Virus record (IMG/VR): IMGVR_UViG_2526164691_000017 | Span: 1-21,753 of that record | Source of the DNA: a virus | Taxonomy: Duplodnaviria > Heunggongvirae > Uroviricota > Caudoviricetes | Direction: 5' to 3' (one strand) | DNA length: 21,753 nt | Shown: in pieces, positions 117 to 20,873 of the stretch | How positions within the stretch are numbered: the stretch's first letter is position 1 | Layout: every line of letters starts with the position of its first letter | Position numbers and translations under genes: made by a program | Notes under the pieces: model-generated | What the model was told of the DNA's origin: nothing | Databases searched by the model: none | What the model saw: the letters and a program-made list of their open reading frames with translations, nothing else

Positions 117-1142
117 TCAGACGACTGCCCGCCGCCACGGCACGTCAACTGACCAATTACGAAAAGTTTCAAGGTTAGGATTGGGGCGATCCGACTTCAC
201 CATTCCGATTTCTTCGCCGGGTTTCAGATCGTCGTAAATAATGCCCGGCTGAATGGTAAGCTCACGTTCATTCTCCTTTCTGCCATTACCATCCGGTTCA
301 TAGCTCTGCCCGTCGCCTTTCCGGATGTACATCCCCAGAGCAGCGGCGATCCTTGCTGCAGTCAGCTCAGAATCTTCATATTCTTTCAGGGCACTGAGGC
401 GGATCAGCACACCGGACAATAAAGACGTCCCGCGCATCTGGTGCAGACGGCGAACAAATTTAAGATGCAGCATTCGCTCTGCATCCACTTCTTTGGTTTC
501 CATCTGCCGTCCGGATACGGGACGACTTTTATACACCAGATATTTTTCGGGACGCCCCCAGTCATCAACAAACACGCCCTGATTCAGCCTGTTGCTCTCA
601 TCACTGGTCATGGGAATAAAGTCCGGCTCGAGCGCCTCCAGCCAGAAATGAACACCGGCAGAAGGCGCCAGGCTGTTTATGCGCCCGGAAACCATCTGGG
701 CAAACACCTCACCATCGCGCAGCCAGGTACGCAGCATCAGACGTTCCAGCATCGGACGGGTAAACTGCCCGGTGACCTCCGGACTGACAGACCATTCACT
801 CCATCGGGTACGTATCTCCGCTGCCAGGTCACGGGCAATGGCCCCATTGCGTAATACCGGATGTGGCTCGACAATAATCCCGTTTTTCCCCACCACCCGT
901 TCTTCCAGCTTGTCAAATACACCAATGACCAGATCGTGGTTGTTATCAAGGTAACGGGCCTGCTCACGTAACGACACGGCCCCGTACTGGCTTAACTGGT
1001 CGGCAGTTCGGTTCTCCCGTCGGGCTTTGTGTGTCCGCGTCGTTTTTACGGCCTCATAAGCCTGGATCACCGCACGGGAACGCAGCCTTGCCGCTTTCCA
1101 TCCTGGTGAAAAAACGCCAATCACATCATCAAGAATTGCCAT
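117..1142 (-). CDS. Phage portal protein, apparently truncated at 341 aa (possible frameshift near 117-144)
   Basis: ORF 117..1214; likely start is the ATG at 1140-1142, overlapping the stop of the upstream gpW-like gene (TGATG). Position after large terminase and gpW matches lambda A-W-B order. 341 aa is short for a portal, and another frame stays open from about 144 to the window's left edge. Confidence 0.55.
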   Translation of the reverse strand: MAILDDVIGVFSPGWKAARLRSRAVIQAYEAVKTTRTHKARRENRTADQLSQYGAVSLREQARYLDNNHDLVIGVFDKLEERVVGKNGIIVEPHPVLRNGAIARDLAAEIRTRWSEWSVSPEVTGQFTRPMLERLMLRTWLRDGEVFAQMVSGRINSLAPSAGVHFWLEALEPDFIPMTSDESNRLNQGVFVDDWGRPEKYLVYKSRPVSGRQMETKEVDAERMLHLKFVRRLHQMRGTSLLSGVLIRLSALKEYEDSELTAARIAAALGMYIRKGDGQSYEPDGNGRKENERELTIQPGIIYDDLKPGEEIGMVKSDRPNPNLETFRNWSVDVPWRRAVV

Positions 1143-3460: not shown

Positions 3461-3987
3461 CTAGAGACTCTCTCCTTCCTCATCAGGAATTAATTCAGCA
3501 GCACAAGCCTCGTAGGATTTTTCCTGAAGAGTGTATCGCAGGTCATCAATGGCCTGCTGTACAACGCCGACGGCCTGAGGAGTCAGGGCGCAATCGCGTT
3601 CAAGAACATCCGGAATTGTCTCCAGAACCTGGACGACAGCCTTTCTCATGGACGAATAGACGATGACTACTTCATCAACGGGGATGAGTTTTCGCTGCTC
3701 CTTTTCCAGCTTGATCCTTTCATTTTCAGACTGGTACCAGTCCTTTCTCTCTTTCGGCTCCATACGGGATGGATCATGAACAGAGTCTGCTGCCTCATGC
3801 TTCACACTAAACAGGGCTGGCCCGACATGCTGCAGGGCGTAAACGGGGTTCCCCCTGACAGTCGCAGCCACAGGAGTGTTAGCCGCGAGGAGCCGTTTTT
3901 TACTGTGTCCCGGTGAAGCCCAAAGGCCTCAGCGATTTTAAAAACACTCCAGTAATAAGCATCACCGATCCCGCTCACATTTGACAT
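3461..3987 (-). pseudogene. Terminase small subunit (Nu1-like), frame-disrupted at a homopolymer near 3896-3901
   Basis: N-terminal part (MSNVSGIGDAYYWSVFKIAEAFGLHRDTVKN, in ORF 3802..4017) and C-terminal part (ORF 3461..3871) are in different frames. Adding one base to the T6 run (A6 on the coding strand) gives a continuous ~175-aa Nu1-like protein. GGAG RBS upstream of ATG at 3987. Confidence 0.55.
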
Positions 3988-4149
3988 AAGCAACTCCATC
4001 TGGCAGGTGAAAATCATGTTTATTTATATATTTCAATTAATTGCAAACTGGTCTAATGACAGGGAGAAAGAAATATTGTACAGGTGAAAAGAGAAATAAC
4101 TTTTAATTATCAATAAATTACCAAACATGCTGCCGCCGCCATGGAAATG

Positions 4150-4240
4150 CAAAAACTAGCCTTTTTCCGCGACGCTCCCGCCCCGTGGCAGGGGCCCCCA
4201 CCGGGAGGACCCGACAGCCTGACAGCCTGACAGCCGTGAT
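4150..4240 (-). other. cos-like site (cosN/cosB) upstream of the Nu1-like gene
   Basis: Minus strand reads GGGGCGGGAGCGTCGCGGAAAAAGGCTAGTTTTTGCATTTCC, which parallels the lambda left end GGGCGGCGACCTCGCGGGTTTTCGCTATTTATG as remembered; lies ~200 bp upstream of the Nu1 start as in lambda; adjacent 2.9-copy GACAGCCT tandem repeat at 4213..4235. Confidence 0.4.
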
Positions 4241-4371
4241 GAGCATCTGATACAGCGCTTTACATAATGGCATAGGAATAATTCAGAAGGACATCACAGC
4301 ATGCCCACACAAATTAGTGTGAGTGTCCTGTTTCTTCCTACGCACAGGACTGACGAGCATGAGGGGAAAAT

Positions 4372-4539
4372 ATGCGAACCATAAATGCCTCATCTTCAGC
4401 AATGCAACCGGCATCCGAACAGGACGATATTGTAAATTCACCTAATTACGAGGACATTGCAGTAGTTGAATTGCAGCTCTGTATTAGCCTGACAGTGACA
4501 GAATGCGATATTGACTCTGTCACAGGTGAAATAGTTTGA
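4372..4539 (+). CDS. Hypothetical small protein (55 aa)
   Basis: ATG at 4372 with GAGGGG RBS 6 nt upstream; acidic product; not in the ORF track (below 60 aa). Convergent with ORF 4560..4766. Confidence 0.2.
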   Translation: MRTINASSSAMQPASEQDDIVNSPNYEDIAVVELQLCISLTVTECDIDSVTGEIV

Positions 4540-4559
4540 ATGATTAGCAGTTATGGTGC

Positions 4560-4766
4560 TCAGTCAACCACCAGGGAATAATCCTTCGAATTCTTATCGT
4601 GCTTCACCAACGCTGCCTCAATTGCCCTGAATGCTTCCAGAGACACCTGATGTTCTATACATGCAATTACAACATCCGGGTAACTCATAGAAATGGTGCT
4701 ATTAAGCATATTTTTTACACGAATCAGATCCAACGAGACTTCATCAGCAGATTGTTCTTTATTCAT
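4560..4766 (-). CDS. Hypothetical protein (68 aa)
   Basis: ORF track; AT-rich; sits in the moron island between cos and ydfO. Not recognised. Confidence 0.3.
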
Positions 4767-5066
4767 TTTGTCGCTCCATGCGTTTGCTCGTCATCTAGCG
4801 GTTAAAATATTACTTCAAATCTTACTGCATAAAAGAGGAAAAGTATGAAAGTTTGAGTACATCGACCTTACATACATCTGTCGGTTGCATATCCCTCCTG
4901 GATGCCAGCAAGGCTCAATTTTGTTACGCAATCAACACTATTCATTAAAAACAGGCTTAATATTTGACATAAATCATCAACAAAACACAAAGAGGTCAGA
5001 CCAGATTGAAACAATAAACACGATAATGCTAACTACGCGCCATCGTATCACATGGAAGGTTTACCA

Positions 5067-5477
5067 ATGGCTCAGGCTGCCATTTTTAAAGAAATATTCG
5101 ATCAAGTGCGTAAAGATTTAAACTGTGAATTATTTTATTCTGAGCTAAAACGTCACAATGTCTCACTTTATATTTACTATTTAGCCACAGATAATATTCA
5201 CATTGTGTTAGAAAACGACAACATAGTGTTAGTAAAAGGACTCAAAAAGGTTGTAAATGTTAAATTCTCCAGAAACAAACATCTTATAGAGACCTCCTAT
5301 AATAAGTTGAAATCAAAAGAAATCACATTTCAACAATACAGGGAAAATCTTGCTAAAGCAGGAGTTTTCCGATGGGTTACAAATATCCAGGAACACCAAA
5401 GATATTACTATGCCTTTGATAACTCATTACTATTTACTGAAAGCATCCAGAAAACTACACAGATCTTACCACGCTAA
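5067..5477 (+). CDS. ydfO: YdfO/YbcV-like prophage protein (136 aa from the internal Met)
   Basis: ORF 5052..5477; starting at [11 protein letters not shown] gives 136 aa, the K-12 YdfO length; position next to gnsB matches Qin order; AT-rich. Confidence 0.55.
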
Positions 5478-5628
5478 ACCATAACGTCCGGCTTCTCTCA
5501 CTCCTGAGCCGGACTGCATTGGTTTAATAAAAACCATCAACAATTGTGATTTAGATATTCGGAACCATTCAAATATAACAAAACCCCGTAAAAACGAGGT
5601 TTATGGATAAATTTTATTATTGAATACA

Positions 5629-5802
5629 TCAGATTAAATTAATCTTGACATCATAGCTTTCAAGACCCGTCATTTTTTCCCGTGCGGTAAACTGAATACT
5701 GGTAACTTCTTTCCCGGTCTTTTTCTTAAGTTCAATAATTTTTTTTGTTATATATTCAGAAATATCTGCTTCTGCTTTTGTTTTTAAGTTTTCAATATTC
5801 AT
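5629..5802 (-). CDS. gnsB: GnsB-family protein (57 aa)
   Basis: Manual minus-strand translation gives MNIENLKTKAEADISEYITKKIIELKKKTGKEVTSIQFTAREKMTGLESYDVKINLI, closely matching K-12 GnsB as remembered (FTAREKMTGLESYDVKI); GAGG RBS; not in the ORF track (below 60 aa). Confidence 0.7.
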   Translation of the reverse strand: MNIENLKTKAEADISEYITKKIIELKKKTGKEVTSIQFTAREKMTGLESYDVKINLI

Positions 5803-5973
5803 CATTTCCTCTTTTAGTCTGTTATGACTTTCCAGTTACACAGTAAGTCGATTATATGGTGCAAACGTGTAAAAGATAAGATGAAACATCGCAATAATCA
5901 ACATACGATAGTCTAAATTTTACACAAACAGACAAAGAAAATTTTCCTGAATTATCAATACAATAGCATCAAA

Positions 5974-6129
5974 TCAACTCAAGAGCCTTATTGCTGCTTC
6001 CAGAATTTCTTCTGAAGTAACATGTCGATCCGCGGCTACATAAATGACTTTATGATCTCCGGTCAGAGATGGAAACCCTGCGGCCATTACAGTAAGGTGT
6101 GTTTTTTCGCCATTTGGATATTCACGCAT
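5974..6129 (-). CDS. ynfN: YnfN-like small protein (51 aa from internal Met)
   Basis: ORF 5974..6165; starting at MREYPNGEKTHL gives exactly 51 aa; location between gnsB and cspI matches K-12 Qin order. Confidence 0.5.
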   Translation of the reverse strand: MREYPNGEKTHLTVMAAGFPSLTGDHKVIYVAADRHVTSEEILEAAIRLLS

Positions 6130-6247
6130 GATGGTGTTAACTCCAGTCATCGCTGGCACTACCACTGCTGGTTCAGAGTTAAAAAAACTATGATTTTTTT
6201 CATGATGTTACCGTAGTATGTGAGTATCCATCGAATAGATACCAAGC

Positions 6248-6267
6248 AAAAAAGCTCCCGAAGGAGC
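6248..6267 (-). terminator. Putative rho-independent terminator downstream of cspI
   Basis: GCTCC-CGAA-GGAGC hairpin followed on the minus strand by a T6 tract (A6 at 6248-6253 on plus). Confidence 0.4.
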
Positions 6268-6474
6268 CTTCATTTTCACTTTTTTAAATCCAACGACAGA
6301 CGGCTGGCATTTAAGTATTGTGAAATATTATCAAATGTAATCATCATTGATTTACAAAAGATACATTTTGCCCCGAAAGGATTCATGTCAGAAACATCAA
6401 AAGATGATGTTCTATACTGGGAACCATGACAACACGGGCATCTAAAGTGAATATGGTTTGTAATATTGTCTACC

Positions 6475-6687
6475 TCAAAGCGCCACTACATGAACAGCGG
6501 CAGGACCTTTAGGTCCGTTCTCAATACCAAATTCAACTTCCTGATTCTCAGTTAATGTTTTGAAATCGTTGCTCTGAATTGCTGAGAAATGGACAAACAC
6601 ATCTTTGCTGCCATCTTTCGGCGTGATGAAACCAAAACCTTTTTCAGGGTTAAACCATTTCACTAAACCAGTCATTTTGTTAGACAT
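6475..6687 (-). CDS. cspI: Cold-shock protein, CspA family (70 aa)
   Basis: [38 protein letters not shown] has the RNP1/RNP2 cold-shock-domain motifs; matches K-12 CspI as remembered; ~360-nt AT-rich upstream region typical of csp leaders. Confidence 0.85.
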
Positions 6688-7049
6688 AATTATTACCTTT
6701 TGAAGAAATTAGCCCTTGGGCAGAATGGTCCGAAAAAAAATATCAGAGAGAAAAACCAACAAGGAAATCTCAAGAGGTACAAATAATAAAATTATAACAA
6801 TGACTGCTTCAGATAAATTTGTAACAAACCAGAACACCATTAACGCATGATTAACCACCCATAGCAAGGATTACTTTTGTAAAGAAAAACACAGCAATGA
6901 AAGAATAGCTTTATTTATTAATAAAACGTGTCATTCTGATTAAGACCTTTTATCTTACCCTTAAGATTTCAGGAATTTTGGCTCATGGAAGAGTCCTTTT
7001 TATTTAAATTTTACATTCCGCGATGTAAATGTTCCGATTTAATATTACC

Positions 7050-8073
<1,024 letters not shown>

Positions 8074-8077
<4 letters not shown>

Positions 8078-8385
8078 ATATATTTATGATGAGGACGCTC
8101 GTGCTTATTGGCAGGATTTTCAATCTTAAAGGAGTACTGATGCTGCAGATAAGACTCAACTTTTTCTGACAATTTTTCTGCTACTTCCAGGAAGACTTGC
8201 CGGACGCTCCTTCTGGCTGCTGCCTCATAAAACTCCAGCGCAGCTCCTTCAACACGGTCCATGGCGACATCCAGGTCAAAAATTTCACCGTCAAAGCGTT
8301 CCTTGTCCTGTAAGGCTACAGTTACCGTAACTTTATTCTCAAAATTACGGACTCCTTTCACAACCAGTTCATAGTCTTGAGTCAT
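8074..8385 (-). CDS. ydfR: YdfR-like protein (103 aa) between holin and endolysin
   Basis: Length and position (essQ-ydfR-rrrQ) match K-12 Qin; overlaps the endolysin start by 4 nt. Confidence 0.6.
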
Positions 8386-8389
8386 TGGA

Positions 8390-8605
8390 TTACTCTCCTC
8401 TCGCAGCCTTACGCCTGTCTTCTTTAATCTTGAAATAAAGATTTGTCAGATACGTCAGCAGGCCAAAAACCAGGCTACCCAGCACACCGATTGCAGCCCA
8501 CTGTGACGGAGTTACTTTATCGAGTAACTGTAATGCCCAGAAACCAGCATTACCCGCCGATGTGCCATAGGCAACACCTGTTGTTAACTTATCCATTGAT
8601 TTCAT
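8390..8605 (-). CDS. essQ: Class II holin, S21-type pinholin (71 aa)
   Basis: From the internal Met, [71 protein letters not shown] is 71 aa with two TM segments and a charged tail, matching phage 21 S21 and K-12 EssQ as remembered. Confidence 0.8.
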
Positions 8606-8824
8606 ATCCTCACCCCGATGTACACGGATGGTGCAATATGTTTGAAAAAGATCGGAGTCTACGGGGTAGTTTTGACAGCACACGTTGTTCTCAACGGCGC
8701 TAAAGAAACATACACATTAAAAATGTGAGTAATTATTTTGAAAGAAAGTCATATATAAAATAATAATACGAGAAATGTTTTCATATTTAGTGTACTGTAT
8801 ACGGCCATTATACAGGAAAAGCCT

Positions 8825-8995
8825 ATGTCAGAACGTAAAGACTCAAAATCACGCCGTAATTATCTCGTTAAATGTTCCTGCCCAAACTGCACCCAAGAGT
8901 CAGAACACAGTTTTTCAAGAGTACAAAAAGGTGCCCTTTTGATCTGCCCTCATTGCAACAAAGTATTCCAGACAAATCTTAAAGCTGTAGCCTGA
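8825..8995 (+). CDS. Hypothetical small zinc-ribbon protein (56 aa; CxxC...CxxC)
   Basis: ATG at 8825 with AGGAAAA RBS; product has CPNC and CPHC pairs; followed by a strong hairpin at about 9055-9078. Confidence 0.35.
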   Translation: MSERKDSKSRRNYLVKCSCPNCTQESEHSFSRVQKGALLICPHCNKVFQTNLKAVA

Positions 8996-9054
8996 TTGAT
9001 TTTATTAGTAACAAGTATTTTTTATATTTTAATAATATATTTAAAGCAGATAAT

Positions 9055-9078
9055 AAAAAACCCGCCTGAGCGGGTTTG
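9055..9078. terminator. Rho-independent terminator hairpin (AACCCGC-CTGA-GCGGGTT), possibly bidirectional
   Basis: GC stem with tetraloop; T-rich run on the minus strand (TTTTTTATTAT) and TTTGAG on plus; downstream of cspB (minus) and the small Zn-ribbon ORF (plus). Confidence 0.55.
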
Positions 9079-9358
9079 AGATTGTGGTGCTTTTTGTGGG
9101 AGTCATCCACTTACGCACTTTGTTTTGCGATGCCAGCAGTTAGCTTCTGCTGTGAAACTATTCATGCAGCAAACCTGCACTTCACCACAATGGTTAGCAT
9201 ACTTTTCCTGATTAAGATTTTGCCAAATATGCTAGCCATTGTTTCATGTATTGGACCTCCTTACTTTTTATTAAAGAGATCCAATATTCACTACTCTGTC
9301 CGTATCTCTACTCAGGCATCAGCCTTCTTCGTTATCGTATACAGACGAGCGATGAATT

Positions 9359-9574
9359 TTAATCAGTAATGATGACATTTGCTGCTGCAGGACCTTTAGC
9401 ACCTCTCTCTATAGAGAAGGTAACCTTTTGACCTTCAAATAAGGTTCGATAATTATCATTCTGAATCGCAGAAAAATGCACAAACACATCTTTACTACCA
9501 TCAACAGGAGAAATAAAGCCGAAACCTTTATCAGCGTTAAACCATTTTACTAAACCAGTCATTTTATTTGACAT
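9359..9574 (-). CDS. cspB: Cold-shock protein, CspA family (71 aa)
   Basis: [53 protein letters not shown]; cold-shock-domain motifs; matches K-12 CspB as remembered. Confidence 0.85.
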
Positions 9575-9884
9575 TCTACATTCCTTAACTTGAGCCTTTC
9601 GGCATAAATGGTTTGCATAACAGAAACGACTTCGTACTTAATTGGAGAGACTCAAAGAAGGAATAAGTGAATAACACCTGAAATGAGAACTGCTTTAGTA
9701 AACTACTTCGTATATCGTCTGTTCTTCAAACCGACGCAGTCATTAACTCATAGTTGAACATATGAAGCAATGTTTATTTTAGACATCCAGCCACCTTCAA
9801 TCCTATCAAAAAAGTAGTTTTCTCCAGGAACGTGTGTATGGTGCACCAGGTTATCAGTATTAAGGAGTTTTTCTGTCCCCTAAA

Positions 9885-10081
9885 ATGACAGGAATTGTCA
9901 AAAACTTTGACTACAAAAGCAGCAAAGGTCTTATATTCCCATCCGATGGCGTATCGATGCCCAGCTTCACGTTTCAGCTCTCAATCTTCGAGATGCAGAA
10001 GAAATTACCACAGGATTACGCGTGGAATTTTGCTGGATAAATGGTTCGCGTGGACCTTCAACTGCCAATGTTTATCCCGGG
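9885..10081 (+). pseudogene. cspF: cspF-like cold-shock gene, frame-disrupted near 9950 and lacking its normal stop
   Basis: From ATG 9885 the frame gives [22 protein letters not shown] (CspF/CspH-like N-terminus) then stops after 55 codons; a second frame gives [42 protein letters not shown] (CspF-like C-terminus) and then runs on as ORF 10022..10411. A missing C at GGC(C)GT would explain the shift. Confidence 0.5.
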
Positions 10082-10117
10082 ATGAGATTCAATATCTCTA
10101 TTGCCCCATTTAAAGCA

Positions 10118-10150
10118 CAAAAACCCGCTTATAAGCGGGTTTTCTACTTT
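10118..10150. terminator. Rho-independent terminator hairpin; candidate tR'-like late terminator downstream of quuQ
   Basis: AAACCCGC-TTATAA-GCGGGTTT hairpin flanked by T-runs on both strands; lies between the Q-like gene and the lysis genes, where lambda has PR'/qut/tR'. Confidence 0.5.
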
Positions 10151-10249
10151 TTTCTAAACGTCGGATACACAAAGCCCATCGTTGAGAAAATCTTATCCAT
10201 ATTTTTTGAAAAATGCAAACATCATGTCGCCATCTTCAGCAAAAATCAT

Positions 10250-11002
10250 TTATCTCGTCACCTTCCTCAATTGCGCTTCCGCGTATGCTTCTTCCTGCCA
10301 GCACTTTGTTACCAGTTTACCAATGACGTCCGCATACCCCTTATACCACTGATAATCGGTCAGGTCTGGTACCAGCTTCTGGACATGACGTCGTGCCAGC
10401 GTGGTCGGTAAACGACTAAACCGGTTTCCATTACAACGCCCACAAATCTTATATACCGGTACGCCATGAAACCGGGTTCTTTTTTCATCCAGAACAATCC
10501 CTTTACCCTTACACCCTCTGCACGCTGTGCTGACTTCGCCCTTACCATGGCAATGCTGACATAGTTCCTTCACCCATTCTTCCTTGATTACAGATTCCCC
10601 GCGTCTGTAGTGTTTCACCACTTCGCGCAATACATTATAAAATCCCGTACCTGAACAATGCTCACAGCGAGCCTTACTTGCCGCAGACCTGGAGTAATCA
10701 GCAAAGGCAAAATTCACGAGGTAAGGAATAATCTGTAACCGGATTTCTTCACTCAATTTGTTCAATGTCGGGTTATCCAGTGCCATCGCGTAATTTAGCA
10801 GGCCTTCAATCGCAAACTGAGCGTCCTGAACACCAACTTTTGCCAGAAATAAGGCCAACCCAAGTGGTGCTTTCGACTGCACCATCCCCTGCGCTGCCAT
10901 TACATCCGTAATTGTTAAACAACCGGTGCCTGTCGCTGGAGCGTCATCGCTCAATTTTGGAGATTTTGGGGAGTAATATTTTGGTAAGGCTTCAAGGTTC
11001 AT
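10250..11002 (-). CDS. quuQ: Late-gene antiterminator Q-like protein (250 aa from internal Met)
   Basis: ORF 10250..11032; starting at [10 protein letters not shown] gives 250 aa, the K-12 QuuQ length; several CxxC zinc-binding pairs; position upstream of the lysis cassette. Confidence 0.75.
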
Positions 11003-11015
11003 GCTCGTTCTCCAC

Positions 11016-12065
11016 TTACGCCAGTACGCCAATTGCCAGCGCGCGATCGATAAAACGAAATATCAGCTCCAGTTGGGAGCCATACTTCTCTTCAAATGCC
11101 ACTGTATCCGTATGCAGCTCGTTGTGATGCTTTCTGCACAAAGGCAACACAAAGAGATCATGTGCTTTTGTTCCCATTCCGCCCTGCCCGTGACCAATCA
11201 GATGATGCGGATCGTCGGCTGGCATACCGCAGCAAGCACACGGCTGTGTCTTAACCCAACGTGTGTATTTCTCCTTAACCCAGCGGCGACGTTTAGGCAG
11301 CTTCATGAAAGATTCCGGAGACTCTGGATCAACGGTGATGCTTACCACCGCCTTTTCCTGTGGTGTTTTTTGTTGCTGGTGGGCGTAAGGCAACGGTGCA
11401 AGATTTTTTGTGCGTTGTTTCAATATGCTGGTGGCGGTCTGCTCTCCCGGTACGATGTCGCTTTCGCGGTACACCGAGCAGATTTTTTCCGCTGGTAATC
11501 CCAGCGAACGACGCGATACAGCCTCAGGTAGTGCATCCACCACCTGATTGCAGACCGCCCACCAGGATAATTCAGCCAAAGATAATTCCCGCTCCTGCGT
11601 ACCGCTTATTGCGTGACGGATGACGTCAATCACCCATGCTGTCAGATTTTGTTGAGCAAGCAGCTCCAGTGATTCCGATGTCTGGTCACGCAGTTGGTTG
11701 TCGCAGTGCCAACACAACACCATTGCGCCGGTACCATAACGGTGAATGACTGTTTCAGAGTGATGGTAATCGCCATTAGGCCACTGGCAGGATGTAACAT
11801 GACGTAATAGCCAGTCAGACAATGCGCCAACACCGCCAGCAGCACGAATCACCCGTTCGTTACTAAAAAACGGCAGCAATGTTTTGTCTTCCGCCAGCGA
11901 CTGGCGAACGGCAGGAACGACTCCGGATGGCAGATTACGCATGCTTTTTGGTTCCGGTTCCACCAGCACTCGAGGATTATGAAATATCTGTATGGATTCA
12001 CGGCCCGGCTTAAGGACCACCAGCCCAAGCTCAGGCACCAGAACAGGTCTAAGTAATACCCGCAC
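11016..12065 (-). CDS. ydfU: YdfU-like protein (DUF968-type, Cys/His-rich C-terminus), 349 aa from a GTG start
   Basis: ORF 11016..12104; GGAGG-TAAC-GTG at 12065 gives 349 aa, the K-12 YdfU length; C-terminal CACCGMPADDPHHLIGHG...CRKHHNELH motif. Confidence 0.7.
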   Translation of the reverse strand: MRVLLRPVLVPELGLVVLKPGRESIQIFHNPRVLVEPEPKSMRNLPSGVVPAVRQSLAEDKTLLPFFSNERVIRAAGGVGALSDWLLRHVTSCQWPNGDYHHSETVIHRYGTGAMVLCWHCDNQLRDQTSESLELLAQQNLTAWVIDVIRHAISGTQERELSLAELSWWAVCNQVVDALPEAVSRRSLGLPAEKICSVYRESDIVPGEQTATSILKQRTKNLAPLPYAHQQQKTPQEKAVVSITVDPESPESFMKLPKRRRWVKEKYTRWVKTQPCACCGMPADDPHHLIGHGQGGMGTKAHDLFVLPLCRKHHNELHTDTVAFEEKYGSQLELIFRFIDRALAIGVLA

Positions 12066-12066
12066 G

Positions 12067-12345
12067 TTACCTCCAGATCCGTTGCTGGAAAGTGCGGGAC
12101 GCACGTGGTGGGCGTTCGGAGTAAGGCAATCTGACTGAGATTATCCAGTGACGGTAGTCGAGGCTAAGGGCTTTCTTAACCTCGTATCCGCGCCTGCGGT
12201 AACACTGAATTATCCATTCAGCCTGCTCTTCAGTGCATGGAGGGTGTTGGAACCATTCAGACTTGAATGCGTGAGAATACCGCTCGTGCGTGCAGACAAG
12301 AACGGGCGAATTATCAGAATTGTAATATTTTACGTTGCGTGCCAT
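12067..12345 (-). CDS. Hypothetical 92-aa protein, translationally coupled to ydfU
   Basis: ORF track; its stop codon overlaps the ydfU RBS; Cys/His-containing. Either this ORF or 12412..12663 may correspond to K-12 rem; I cannot say which. Confidence 0.45.
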   Translation of the reverse strand: MARNVKYYNSDNSPVLVCTHERYSHAFKSEWFQHPPCTEEQAEWIIQCYRRRGYEVKKALSLDYRHWIISVRLPYSERPPRASRTFQQRIWR

Positions 12346-12411
12346 CGGTTTTCTCCGGTGGCACGGTGTTACTCAGCGGGAGTTCAGCCCCGCGCAAGAT
12401 TGTAGATGAGT

Positions 12412-12663
12412 TTATTCTTCTGCAAAAGCTGAAAAGCCTGCTTTTATTCCGATCTCTTTCAGTGCCTGTAATGAAGTGACAAACTCACCTTCGCGCAAGA
12501 TAAATCCGTCTGTCACTCGACCATCCACAAAATTAATTAACGCAGCCCCATTCTTTCGCAAACACATAATGCGGTAATGACTAACAAAATTTCCATTTTC
12601 AACGCACACAGCATAGAGGCCATCTTCACAAAAAATTTTACGCAGTTCTTCGATGTTCATCAT
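12412..12663 (-). CDS. Hypothetical 83-aa protein (possibly the rem equivalent)
   Basis: ORF track; 83 aa equals the annotated length of K-12 Rem and it sits between ydfU and hokD, but I do not remember the Rem sequence. Confidence 0.45.
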   Translation of the reverse strand: MMNIEELRKIFCEDGLYAVCVENGNFVSHYRIMCLRKNGAALINFVDGRVTDGFILREGEFVTSLQALKEIGIKAGFSAFAEE

Positions 12664-12780
12664 CAGAATCCTTCCGGATAATTAGCTCTCCCCTTTAAGG
12701 GACCATCCCTCTTATCCCTGCGCGCTACTTAAGTATTTTTGATTCTATTCCGGCACCGTCCAGAACTTCAAACGCGTTGA

Positions 12781-12811
12781 AAATAAAAACAAAAACCCGC
12801 CGAAGCGGGTT
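12781..12811 (-). terminator. Rho-independent terminator downstream of hokD
   Basis: AACCCGC-CGAA-GCGGGTT hairpin followed on the minus strand by TTTTTGTTTTTATTT. Confidence 0.65.
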
Positions 12812-12879
12812 AAGTGCGGGTGCGTTGAGGATGCCTGCCACATCAGAGGTGGCGAGGGATTTCTCCCTCGCCGGGTTTC

Positions 12880-13035
12880 TTACTCCTCAGGTTCGTAAGC
12901 TGTGAAGACAGCGACCTCCGTCTGGCCGGTTCGGATTCGTACCTCGCAGAGGTCTTTCCTCGTTACCAGTGCCGTCACTATGACGGTTAAACAGATGACG
13001 ATCAGGGCGATTAACATCGCCTTTTGCTGCTTCAT
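12880..13035 (-). CDS. hokD: Hok-family type I toxin (51 aa)
   Basis: From the internal Met of ORF 12880..13092: MKQQKAMLIALIVICLTVIVTALVTRKDLCEVRIRTGQTEVAVFTAYEPEE, a single-TM Hok/Gef peptide matching K-12 HokD as remembered; AAGGAG RBS upstream. Confidence 0.8.
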   Translation of the reverse strand: MKQQKAMLIALIVICLTVIVTALVTRKDLCEVRIRTGQTEVAVFTAYEPEE

Positions 13036-13758
13036 AGCCTGCTTCTCCTTGCCTTTCGGCACGTAAGAGGCTAACCTACATATGTCTAGCATGAAATTGG
13101 CCTCAGATTAATGTTAAGCGTCTTGCAGGACGCGTAATGTTAACTGGGGCTTTTCTCTATCTGCCGTTGGTGTTCATGCCCGAGGCAGATAGCCTCAAGC
13201 ACCCGCAGCCATTCTACTTAACTACCGTTACCTCGCCAATGTGAAATCAGTCAGAAAGGCGATCCATAAGAACAATAGCAAGACAATAAATCGCCATTAC
13301 AGCCGTAATAGCCAGCGCACATTTGAGAACCAGCACCACAACCTCCTGTATTGGACGTAGACCAGTCCTGATGAATATGAGGCTGTCTCGTCAGTGATTC
13401 AATACAACTATTGGGTATAGTTTCTCTGATTTTTTCTGTGGAAATGGGGCACAACCACTAGTCACCACCAGCACTTCTTTTAATACGCAAAGTCCGACAC
13501 AAGCTAACCTTCTAGTCCGCTTTGAGCGAAAAACAGCCATAATTTAGTGCCACGTATATAATGATAGAGCTATTCAAGCTAGCAATTCACATGTAAAAAT
13601 TCAGAGGGTAGATGCACATAGTTATAAATGTTGGCTCCATCGACAAATTGCGGTCTCAAGTACATTTTAGACTGGCCCCCTGAATCTCCAGACAACCAGT
13701 ATCACTTAAATAAGTGATAGTCTTAATACTAGTTTTTAGACTAGTCATTGGAGAACAG

Positions 13759-14124
13759 ATGATTGATGTCTTAGGGCCGGAGAAACGCAGACGGCGTACC
13801 ACACAGGAAAAGATCGCAATTGTTCAGCAGAGCTTTGAACCGGGGATGACGGTCTCCCTCGTTGCCCGGCAACATGGTGTAGCAGCCAGCCAGTTATTTC
13901 TCTGGCGTAAGCAATACCAGGAAGGAAGTCTTACCGCTGTCGCCGCCGGAGAACAGGTTGTTCCTGCCTCTGAACTTGCTGCCGCCATGAAGCAGATTAA
14001 AGAACTCCAGCGCCTGCTCGGCAAGAAAACGATGGAAAATGAACTCCTCAAAGAAGCCGTTGAATATGGACGGGCAAAAAAGTGGATAGCGCACGCGCCC
14101 TTATTGCCCGGGGATGGGGAGTAA
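13759..14124 (+). CDS. insC: IS2 transposase OrfA (InsC), 121 aa
   Basis: [56 protein letters not shown]: HTH plus leucine-zipper OrfA; A6G slippery heptamer (GGGCAAAAAAGTGG near 14068-14081) for the -1 frameshift into insD. Confidence 0.9.
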
Positions 14125-14987
14125 GCTTAGTCAGCCGTTGTCTCCGGGTGTCGCGTGCGCAGTTGCACGTCATTCTCAGACGAACCGATGACTGGATGGA
14201 TAGCCGCCGCAGTCGTCACACTGATGATACGGATGTGCTTCTCCGTATACACCATGTTATCGGAGAGCTGCCCACGTATGGTTATCGTCGGGTATGGGCG
14301 CTGCTTCGCAGACAGGCAGAACTTGATGGTATGCCTGCGATCAATGCCAAACGTGTTTACCGGATCATGCGCCAGAATGCGCTGTTGCTTGAGCGAAAAC
14401 CTGCTGTACCGCCATCGAAACGGGCACATACAGGCAGAGTGGCCGTGAAAGAAAGCAATCAGCGATGGTGCTCTGACGGGTTCGAGTTCTGCTGTGATAA
14501 CGGAGAGAGACTGCGTGTCACGTTCGCGCTGGACTGCTGTGATCGTGAGGCACTGCACTGGGCGGTGACTACCGGCGGTTTCAACAGTGAAACAGTACAG
14601 GACGTCATGCTGGGAGCGGTGGAACGCCGCTTCGGCAACGATCTTCCGTCGTCTCCAGTGGAGTGGCTGACGGATAATGGTTCATGCTACCGGGCTAATG
14701 AAACACGCCAGTTCGCCCGGATGTTGGGACTTGAACCGAAGAACACGGCGGTGCGGAGTCCGGAGAGTAACGGAATAGCAGAGAGCTTCGTGAAAACGAT
14801 AAAGCGTGACTACATCAGTATCATGCCCAAACCAGACGGGTTAACGGCAGCAAAGAACCTTGCAGAGGCGTTCGAGCATTATAACGAATGGCATCCGCAT
14901 AGTGCGCTGGGTTATCGCTCGCCACGGGAATATCTGCGGCAGCGGGCTTGTAATGGGTTAAGTGATAACAGATGTCTGGAAATATAG
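14082..14987 (+). CDS. insD: IS2 transposase OrfB (InsD), DDE catalytic domain, 301 aa
   Basis: ORF track; overlaps insC in the -1 frame; IS3-family integrase-core protein with the DDE triad (the final Glu in the [10 protein letters not shown] segment). Confidence 0.9.
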
Positions 14988-15045
14988 GGGCAAATCCACA
15001 TTTATTAATGTTGCCCCCGCATTAACAAATCATCAAGGTGACGAC

Positions 15046-20820: not shown

Positions 20821-20873
20821 TTTCTGGTGACGTTTGGCGGTATCAGTTTTACTCCGTGACTGCTCTGCCGCCG
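20821..20873 (+). ncRNA. dicF: DicF small RNA (antisense inhibitor of ftsZ translation)
   Basis: TTTCTGGTGACGTTTGGCGGTATCAGTTTTACTCCGTGACTGCTCTGCCGCC followed by GTTTTT matches the 53-nt DicF sequence as remembered; located between ydfBC and dicB as in K-12. Confidence 0.75.

What the first reader, a model, noticed from the sequence alone, without database searches (positions are those of the whole stretch)
4300..6700. AT-rich moron island of stress-related small genes between cos and the lysis cassette
This stretch carries ydfO, gnsB, ynfN and cspI plus two unrecognised small ORFs (4372..4539 and 4560..4766), all in visibly AT-rich sequence with long non-coding spacers. A further pair (cspB, cspF) interrupts the Q-to-holin late region, and the cspB leader shows a repeated TACGAAGT motif. 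The clustering of cold-shock-type genes in a prophage late region is striking, and the two unrecognised ORFs have no assigned function.
Basis: partly seen in the sequence, partly recalled or inferred. Interest (0 to 1): 0.4.

Follow-up and report, generated by a model that had tools for sequence, protein, structure and literature searches.

The report
Known Qin-type prophage cold-shock cassette
This stretch is the well-known accessory ("moron") region of a Qin/lambda-type E. coli prophage, carrying cold-shock genes copied from the host; of the two "unrecognised" small ORFs, one is the already described lambda gene p79/YbcW and the other is most likely not a gene.

Summary
The window is a Qin-like lambdoid prophage (100% identity to E. 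coli DEC9B over 4000-7100; collinear with K-12 Qin from 4989 to 13049), with late genes on the minus strand. The interval between Rz (7051) and cos (nick at 4183/4184) is AT-rich: GC 0.30-0.39 against 0.51-0.57 in the terminase genes. It holds cspI-ynfQ-ynfR-ynfN-gnsB, ydfO, and a 68-aa ORF.

Much of another spacer is the cspI thermoregulator leader (Rfam RF01766).

The cspI..gnsB block is a syntenic paralog of the chromosomal cspG-ymcF-ymcE-gnsA locus. It sits where lambda and DLP12 carry bor, and isolated phages (Tritos, mEp460, 2H10, HannyBb) carry it too.

The 68-aa ORF is YbcW/lambda p79 (91% identical). It is a real, non-essential small protein recently reported as the trigger of the Vulcan defence system; its own function is unknown.

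The 55-aa ORF loses its start codon and is frameshifted in the 80%-diverged relatives that keep YbcW intact, so it is probably spurious. cspF is a frameshifted pseudogene here. The TACGAAGT repeat is real but cspB-specific and unexplained. Interest is low.

The parts
4160..4240 (-). cos region of the prophage, with the nick at 4183/4184. The lambda-like cosN sequence GGGCGGGAGCGT reads leftward from 4183. A tandem CTGTCAGG(C) repeat lies at 4216-4233.
   Evidence: The right end of the linear phage Tritos genome (...gggcccctgccacg) and its left end (gggcgggagcgtcgcgg...) abut at this point in the window. The resemblance to lambda cosN rests on my own knowledge of the lambda left end plus the lambda right end shown.
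4372..4539 (+). 55-aa ORF (phrog_4035), most likely a non-coding chance ORF in the conserved segment between ybcW and cos.
   Evidence: It has only 41 protein clusters, of variable length and with many truncated. Homology to lambda/DLP12 stops at 4414, inside the ORF, and there are two 1-nt indels. In E. ruysiae and strain SCPM-O-B-8794 the start codon is ACG and two 1-nt deletions split the frame. RefSeq does not annotate it. It has no Pfam, NCBIfam or PADLOC hit.
4560..4766 (-). ybcW / lambda p79 homolog: a 68-aa helical protein and the last late-strand gene before cos.
   Evidence: It is 91% identical to lambda 47738-47941 (lambdap79) and is annotated YbcW in phage Tritos. It matches phrog_657 over its full length. 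The ORF has no indels in relatives at 79-81% identity, with pN/pS about 0.45. True diverged homologs at 42-54% identity keep the YPDVV.ACI...VS.E.F.AIEA.L core. Protein-level activity is reported in 10.64898/2026.09.04.749371.
5067..5477 (+). ydfO (DUF1398), the homolog of lambda p78 and DLP12 ybcV, divergent from ybcW.
   Evidence: PF07166 at E=1.5e-43. PDB 2hh8 'hypothetical protein ydfO' at E=8e-67. Annotated. Lambda and DLP12 show the same arrangement.
5581..5602 (-). Predicted intrinsic terminator downstream of gnsB, marking the end of the minus-strand cold-shock unit.
   Evidence: A 9-bp stem followed by a T-rich tail. This is a consensus scan only.
5629..5802 (-). gnsB
   Evidence: PF08178 GnsAB at E=3e-35. 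It is 67% identical to chromosomal GnsA.
5974..6203 (-). ynfN. K-12 annotates a 51-aa form; the ORF is 63 aa from GTG 6165. The 76-aa form starting at ATG 6203 is out of frame here because the homopolymer run is T7 rather than T8.
   Evidence: phrog_3425 and phrog_4911. The window and K-12 have T7; DEC9B and L006 have T8. There is no similarity to YmcE.
6208..6273 (-). ynfR, a 21-aa small protein.
   Evidence: RefSeq annotation. YnfR-SPA increases strongly after cold shock (PMC6001520).
6276..6464 (-). ynfQ, a YmcF-like CxxC small protein.
   Evidence: PF23641 at E=7e-32. It is 66% identical to YmcF.
6475..6687 (-). cspI, a CspA-family cold-shock protein.
   Evidence: PF00313 at E=1.6e-31. It is 79% identical to CspG.
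6688..6833 (-). cspI 5' leader (cspA-type thermoregulator). The cspI promoter should lie just upstream of 6833.
   Evidence: Rfam RF01766 hit at 6448..6833 (-), 112.8 bits against a gathering score of 78.
9343..9735 (-). cspB with its cspA-type thermoregulator leader, which contains the TACGAAGTnGTTT direct repeat at 9624-9636 and 9700-9712.
   Evidence: Rfam RF01766 at 161.6 bits.
9873..10075 (+). cspF pseudogene, frameshifted. A 258-bp stretch present in K-12, including ynfS, is missing after 10074.
   Evidence: RefSeq note 'frameshifted; incomplete'. Alignment to K-12. Three-frame translation.

Best explanation
Window 4184-7050 is the right-end accessory region of a Qin/lambda-type temperate phage, read on the reverse strand. 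It has two layers.

(1) An ancestral lambdoid pair sits next to cos: ydfO (the lambda p78/ybcV family, DUF1398) and ybcW (lambda p79). ybcW is the last gene on the late strand before cos. It is read as part of the late transcript, or by read-through (inferred). It makes a small helical protein that is dispensable for phage growth.

(2) A moron cassette, cspI-ynfQ-ynfR-ynfN-gnsB, is inserted between Rz and ydfO, in the slot that holds bor in lambda and DLP12. The cassette is a diverged copy of the host cspG-ymcF-(ymcE)-gnsA locus. It carries its own promoter and a cspA-type thermosensing 5' leader, and it ends at an intrinsic terminator after gnsB. It is therefore expressed from the repressed prophage when temperature drops: the leader refolds, the mRNA is stabilised and translated, and Rho termination is relieved (mechanism taken from the literature). 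This gives the lysogen extra RNA-chaperone capacity and membrane-lipid modulation. A second csp unit, cspB with a decayed cspF, sits between Q and the holin.

The 55-aa ORF is a chance reading frame in the non-coding segment between ybcW and cos.
For: Identity and annotation:
- 100% identity to DEC9B, with RefSeq features.
- Collinear with K-12 Qin over 4989-13049.

Composition:
- GC drops to 0.30-0.39.

Autonomous regulation:
- RF01766 hits lie upstream of cspI and cspB.
- A terminator is predicted after gnsB.

Host origin:
- CspI/CspG 79%, YnfQ/YmcF 66% and GnsB/GnsA 67% identity, in the same gene order.

Slot variability:
- Lambda and DLP12 carry bor between Rz and p78/ybcV.

Carried by viable phages:
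- Tritos, PhiR42_1, PhiR63_1, 2H10, HannyBb and mEp460.

Expression (literature):
- YnfR is cold-induced.
- cspI, ynfQ and ynfN are co-induced about 6-fold, with the same SspA dependence.
- Temperature-dependent Rho control of csp leaders.

ybcW is a real gene:
-.

The 55-aa ORF is not conserved:
-.
Against: - No expression data exist for this strain.
- The cspI promoter was not found by the crude sigma-70 scan.
- The operon structure, including whether gnsB is co-transcribed, is inferred from co-regulation in K-12 and from gene spacing.
- A fitness benefit of the prophage csp copies in the cold has not been shown here, and E. coli csp genes are highly redundant.
- The pN/pS of 0.45 for ybcW rests on few substitutions.
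- PHROGs does hold a 55-aa family (phrog_4035) for the other ORF, although this probably reflects repeated automatic calls on near-identical DNA.
Confidence: 0.9

Rival explanations
1. The 55-aa ORF (4372..4539, +) is a genuine small gene. It would fill the same slot and orientation (convergent with ybcW, just upstream of cos) that DUF3950 genes occupy in other lambdoids: ylcI in DLP12 and lambda, ynfO in K-12 Qin.
For: It has the same position and strand as ylcI/ynfO. It matches phrog_4035 over its full length. The ORF is intact in many O26-type genomes.
Against: It has no similarity to DUF3950 or any other Pfam family. The start codon is lost and there are two frameshifts in relatives that keep ybcW and the cos sequence intact. 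Its C-terminal 42 codons overlap a DNA segment that is conserved in lambda/DLP12, where no such ORF exists and where 1-nt indels occur. RefSeq does not call it.
Confidence: 0.07
2. The csp cassette mainly serves the phage rather than the lysogen. Csp RNA chaperones, or antitermination by Csp proteins, would support late-gene expression and lysis at low temperature, so the genes are lytic-cycle accessories rather than lysogenic-conversion morons.
For: Both csp units are on the late strand inside the Q-dependent late region. Fully viable phages retain them. Csp proteins can act as antiterminators (statement in PMC11228462).
Against: They carry their own cold-shock leaders. In K-12, where Qin is defective and cannot run a lytic cycle, they are still cold- and stress-induced. 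The two roles are not mutually exclusive.
Confidence: 0.15
3. The AT-rich interval is decaying, H-NS-silenced prophage junk, and the small genes have no current function.
For: Sequence this AT-rich is the type silenced by H-NS (general knowledge). cspF is a pseudogene here. The ynfN 5' end varies through a homopolymer run. Terminase and portal reading frames in the window carry indels relative to DEC9B.
Against: cspI, ynfQ, gnsB, ydfO and ybcW are intact. They have strong family matches and are conserved in thousands of genomes and in viable phages. Published induction and protein detection exist.
Confidence: 0.05

Closest known systems
Cryptic prophage Qin of E. coli K-12 (ydfO-gnsB-ynfN-ynfR-ynfQ-cspI-rzpQ ... 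essQ-ynfU-cspB-cspF-quuQ)
   Same: Same genes in the same order and orientation, at 97-98% DNA identity from window 4989 to 13049.
   Different: K-12 has ynfO (DUF3950) plus nohA to the left of ydfO. The window instead has ybcW, a different cos, and a DUF1441-type small terminase with complete head genes. In the window cspF is frameshifted, and ynfS and relBE are absent.
Right end of phage lambda (Rz-bor-p78-p79-cos) and DLP12 (rzpD-borD-ybcV-ybcW-ylcI-nohD)
   Same: The ydfO/p78 and ybcW/p79 pair is in the same relative orientation immediately before cos. About 150 nt downstream of ybcW is also conserved.
   Different: Lambda and DLP12 carry bor where the window carries cspI-ynfQ-ynfR-ynfN-gnsB. 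They also have a DUF3950 ORF (ylcI) between ybcW and cos, which the window lacks.
Chromosomal cold-shock locus cspH / cspG-ymcF-ymcE-gnsA of E. coli
   Same: Same gene order for csp, a YmcF-like gene and a Gns gene, with 79%, 66% and 67% protein identity. A cspA-type leader is present.
   Different: ynfN and ynfR replace ymcE, with no detectable similarity. In the prophage the divergent csp partner (cspF) belongs to the separate cspB unit.
Escherichia phage Tritos (OV696610) and relatives mEp460, 2H10, HannyBb, PhiR42_1 and PhiR63_1
   Same: They carry the whole module cspB-S-ydfR-R-Rz-cspI-ynfQ-ynfN-gnsB-ybcV-ybcW-cos, at 94-99.9% identity.
   Different: These are isolated phage genomes, whereas the window is a prophage whose terminase and portal frames differ by indels from its closest match.

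Membership tests
Lambdoid-phage moron (autonomously expressed accessory cassette) | Inserted between conserved phage modules and absent from the same slot in related phages | tested here: met
   It lies between Rz and the p78/ydfO-p79/ybcW pair. Lambda and DLP12 have bor there.
Lambdoid-phage moron (autonomously expressed accessory cassette) | Base composition different from the neighbouring phage genes | tested here: met
   GC 0.30-0.39 against 0.45-0.57 in the flanks.
Lambdoid-phage moron (autonomously expressed accessory cassette) | Own promoter and terminator, expressed from the repressed prophage | tested here: inconclusive
   The cspA-type leader implies a transcription start near 6833, and a terminator is predicted at 5602-5581. 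The sigma-70 scan found no promoter. Expression in K-12 lysogens is documented in the literature.
CspA-family cold-shock gene with thermoregulator leader (Rfam RF01766) | CSD protein preceded by a long 5' UTR matching the cspA thermoregulator model above the gathering score | tested here: met
   cspI scores 112.8 bits and cspB 161.6 bits against a gathering score of 78. PF00313 at E=1.6e-31.
CspA-family cold-shock gene with thermoregulator leader (Rfam RF01766) | Induction on temperature downshift | not testable with these tools
   Literature only: neighbouring YnfR is cold-induced, and csp leaders are under temperature-dependent Rho control.
YbcW / lambda p79 family (phrog_657) | Full-length sequence similarity to lambda p79 / DLP12 YbcW | tested here: met
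   91% identity over residues 1-68 to lambda 47738-47941. phrog_657 at E=7e-47 covering 1-68 of 68.
YbcW / lambda p79 family (phrog_657) | Position as the last late-strand ORF upstream of cos, next to a divergent DUF1398 gene | tested here: met
   Seen in the window, lambda, DLP12 and Tritos. A Salmonella homolog lies about 70 bp upstream of a lambda-like cos and Nu1, without a DUF1398 gene.
Protein-coding gene (the 55-aa ORF 4372..4539) | Reading frame and start codon preserved in diverged relatives | tested here: not met
   The start is ATG->ACG, and two 1-nt deletions split the frame in E. ruysiae and SCPM-O-B-8794. Homology to lambda/DLP12 ends inside the ORF.
GnsA/GnsB family (PF08178) | Full-length Pfam match above the gathering score | tested here: met
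   120.3 bits against a cut-off of 27.
YmcF-like small zinc-ribbon proteins (PF23641) | Full-length Pfam match, CxxC...CxxC motif | tested here: met
   109.9 bits against a cut-off of 27. CPCC and CIFC are conserved with YmcF.
DUF1398 (YdfO/YbcV/lambda p78) | Pfam PF07166 match and identity to the solved YdfO structure | tested here: met
   148 bits. PDB 2hh8 at E=8e-67.

The most novel reading that the evidence does not exclude
YbcW/lambda p79 may not be a random accessory gene but a cos-linked factor. It is the last ORF before cos in lambda, DLP12, Qin-like prophages and Tritos. A 42%-identical homolog sits about 70 bp upstream of a lambda-like cos and Nu1 gene in a Salmonella PICI-like satellite, which encodes a DUF927 primase, PerC, a capsid E homolog and a decoration D homolog. 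That linkage across such deep divergence could mean the protein modulates DNA packaging or terminase specificity. It would also explain why a defence system (Vulcan) has evolved to sense it.
Probability: 0.12. Interest if true: 0.45.

Novelty: already known. Interest (0 to 1): 0.12.

Why it matters
It matters little as a discovery. The arrangement is the textbook Qin prophage accessory region, and cold induction of its genes is published.

The useful outcomes are corrective:
- The 68-aa ORF should be labelled YbcW/lambdap79, a real phage protein that is now known as a defence-system trigger but still lacks a function of its own.
- The 55-aa ORF should not be carried forward as a gene.
- cspF is a pseudogene here.

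The only open biological question worth a follow-up is what YbcW does and why it stays glued to cos.

Tried and rejected
- Pfam, NCBIfam and PADLOC gave nothing for either small ORF. Only PHROG families of unknown function matched.
- A PDB sequence search with YbcW found no hit at E<=10.
- AlphaFold2 on YbcW gave pLDDT 66 for the single sequence and 75.7 with a 4-sequence alignment, in both cases a helical model. Foldseek against PDB and BFVD gave no match better than E=3.6, so there is no fold-based function.
- The exhaustive representative search, the word-index searches and the genome scan were swamped by lambda DNA contaminants, seen as about 3.5-kb contigs in unrelated taxa. Only two clearly diverged true homologs (P0200, P0305) emerged.
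- Folding the conserved 166-nt segment downstream of ybcW gave z=-0.45, and folding the cspB leader gave z=-0.13. Neither supports an RNA structure beyond the known one.
- The TACGAAGTnGTTT repeat occurs only in cspB leaders, whose sequences are near-identical, and not in the cspI or cspG leaders. I could assign it no function.
- The sigma-70 scan found fewer promoter-like sites than shuffled sequence, and none at cspI.
- A literature search for phage Tritos found nothing.
Full report
**What the window is.** Window 4000-7100 is 100% identical to the chromosome of E. coli DEC9B. It matches 3413 of 5426 complete E. coli genomes, and 440 of them cover at least 80% of the stretch. RefSeq annotation of that genome shows a lambdoid prophage whose late genes run on the window's minus strand. 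In order these are: Q homolog ydfT, a cspF remnant, cspB, ynfU, holin, ydfR, endolysin, rzpQ, cspI, ynfQ, ynfR, ynfN, gnsB, ydfO (opposite strand), a 68-aa hypothetical protein, a DUF1441 small terminase, the large terminase, portal and head genes. The window is collinear with cryptic prophage Qin of K-12 from 4989 to 13049 at 97-98% identity. The sequence to the left of 4989 differs: K-12 has ynfO and nohA there.

**Checking the observation.**
- All four named genes and both ORFs are at the stated places.
- GC falls to 0.30-0.39 between about 4600 and 7000, against 0.51-0.57 in the terminase genes.
- The cos site is real and can be located. The deposited linear genome of phage Tritos ends in ...GGGCCCCTGCCACG and begins GGGCGGGAGCGTCGCGG. 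These two ends abut at window 4184/4183 on the minus strand. 'Between cos and the lysis cassette' is therefore correct.
- The 'long non-coding spacers' are only partly non-coding. The ynfN-cspI gap holds ynfR (6208..6273) and ynfQ (6276..6464, PF23641, E=7e-32).
- 146 nt upstream of cspI belong to a cspA-type thermoregulator leader (Rfam RF01766, 112.8 bits, 6448..6833). cspB has the same element at 161.6 bits.
- cspF is frameshifted here, and the 258 bp that follow it in K-12, including ynfS, are missing.
- TACGAAGT does occur twice in the cspB leader, as a 12-of-13-nt repeat TACGAAGTnGTTT. It is conserved in the near-identical cspB leaders of K-12, DEC9B and Tritos but absent from the cspI and cspG leaders. 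I could assign it no function.

**The cold-shock block.**
- CspI is 79% identical to CspG, YnfQ 66% to YmcF, and GnsB 67% to GnsA. The order csp, ymcF-like, X, gns is the same as in the chromosomal cspG-ymcF-ymcE-gnsA locus. YnfN is unrelated to YmcE. The block is therefore a diverged copy of a host cold-shock locus.
- It sits where lambda and DLP12 carry bor, between Rz and the p78/ybcV gene.
- A terminator-like hairpin follows gnsB at 5602-5581.
- The same block is carried by isolated lambdoid phages: Tritos, PhiR42_1, PhiR63_1, 2H10, HannyBb and mEp460. It is a circulating moron, not just debris in a dead prophage.
- Published work already covers its expression. YnfR-SPA rises strongly after cold shock (PMC6001520).
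- cspI, ynfQ and ynfN are co-induced about 6-fold by AZT with the same strong SspA dependence, which fits one operon (PMC11228462).
- csp leaders are controlled by temperature-dependent Rho termination, with cspI listed (PMC12360218).
- The Qin csp genes have been described as horizontally acquired (PMC6379469).

**The 68-aa ORF (4560..4766, minus strand).**
- It is 91% identical over its full length to lambda 47738-47941 (lambdap79) and to DLP12 YbcW, and 98.5% identical to the gene annotated YbcW in Tritos. It matches phrog_657 end to end.
- The frame has no indels in relatives at 79-81% protein identity, with pN/pS about 0.45.
- Two genuinely diverged homologs (54% and 41% identity in alignment A5) keep a YPDVV.ACI...VS.E.F.AIEA.L core.
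- A September 2026 preprint reports that lambda escapers of the Vulcan NADase defence system all delete lambdap79, by recombination with K-12 Qin, which lacks it. It also reports that co-expressing lambdap79 with Vulcan is toxic (10.64898/2026.09.04.749371). The protein is therefore made and is dispensable.
- A CRISPRi screen scored lambdap79 'essential' while citing earlier literature in which it is non-essential (PMC10695390). I read the CRISPRi result as a polar effect on the late transcript continuing through cos; this is my inference.
- AlphaFold2 gives a small helical model (pLDDT 75.7) with no Foldseek match in PDB or BFVD. There is no Pfam, NCBIfam, PADLOC or PDB sequence hit. Its own function remains unknown.

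**The 55-aa ORF (4372..4539, plus strand).**
- It lies in the 376 bp between the ybcW stop and cos.
- Only 41 protein clusters match it, many truncated or extended.
- DNA homology with lambda and DLP12 runs about 150 nt past ybcW and stops at window 4414, inside the ORF. It includes two 1-nt indels there.
- In E. ruysiae and strain SCPM-O-B-8794, which share this cos type and keep ybcW intact, the start codon is ACG and two 1-nt deletions break the frame into fragments.
- RefSeq does not call it.
- I conclude it is not a conserved gene. The phrog_4035 match most likely reflects repeated automatic calls on near-identical DNA.
- The one point in its favour is that DUF3950 genes (ylcI, ynfO) occupy the same slot and strand in other lambdoids. 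It shows no similarity to them.

**A lead beyond the finding.** The Salmonella homolog of YbcW (P0305) lies in a PICI-like element that encodes DUF4222, a DUF927 primase, PerC, a capsid E homolog and a decoration D homolog. There it sits about 70 bp upstream of a lambda-like cos and a Nu1 gene. Together with lambda, DLP12, Tritos and this window, YbcW is repeatedly the last ORF before cos. This could be hitch-hiking with the cos module or a packaging-related role. The other diverged homolog (P0200) has no Nu1 within 3 kb downstream, so the linkage is not universal.

**Verdict.** The feature is real and correctly located, and 'moron island' is a fair description. It is already known as the Qin-type accessory region, so novelty is nil and interest is low. 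The corrections are:
- the 68-aa ORF is YbcW/lambdap79;
- the 55-aa ORF is probably spurious;
- ynfQ, ynfR and the cspI leader were missed;
- cspF is a pseudogene in this window.

Noticed in passing
window 145-155, 1426, 1495, 1582, 1644, 3896: Relative to the otherwise near-identical DEC9B prophage, the window has single-base indels in the portal, large terminase and DUF1441 small terminase genes. These break the reading frames: terL reads 602 aa here against a 2100-bp gene in DEC9B, and terS is split at a T-run at 3896. This is either prophage decay or assembly errors.
   Followed up: partly
window 6181-6187 (minus-strand T-run upstream of ynfN): There is a homopolymer length polymorphism. 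The window and K-12 have T7, giving the short YnfN. DEC9B and a Veillonella-labelled MAG contig (L006) have T8, giving a 76-aa N-terminally extended YnfN that matches phrog_3425.
   Followed up: partly
L004 4110..4304 (-) = NC_001416 about 48109-48303: Phage lambda carries an unannotated 64-aa ORF (MSTKNRTRRTTTRNIRFPNQMIEQINIALEQKG...) between p79 and cos. It sits at the position of DLP12 ylcI (DUF3950), where DLP12 and lambda are near-identical in DNA.
   Followed up: no
loci L007-L034, L037-L042; proteins P0027-P0120: Most 'homologs' of YbcW in public data are lambda DNA itself. They appear as about 3.5-kb contigs and as contigs assigned to Pseudomonas, Streptomyces, Bacillus-group, Flavobacterium and even a plant. 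This is consistent with lambda control or spike-in DNA contaminating assemblies, many with frameshift errors. It inflates the apparent family size of 2205 clusters.
   Followed up: partly
L045 1-5860 (Salmonella enterica serovar Glostrup contig): A PICI-like satellite encodes DUF4222, a DUF927 primase, PerC, a capsid E homolog, a decoration protein D homolog, a YbcW homolog, a lambda-like cos and Nu1.
   Followed up: partly
window 13030-13204 (-), 20822-20873 (+), about 13760-15000: There is a sok antisense RNA of the hokD locus and a DicF sRNA (Rfam). An IS2 element follows hokD where K-12 Qin has relBE.
   Followed up: no
window 4216-4233 and 4486-4495: The 10-mer AGCCTGACAG occurs twice in tandem about 35 bp from the cos nick. 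It occurs once more inside a conserved hairpin (GTGACAGAG...TCTGTCAC) just downstream of ybcW. These are possible terminase or cosQ-type recognition elements.
   Followed up: no
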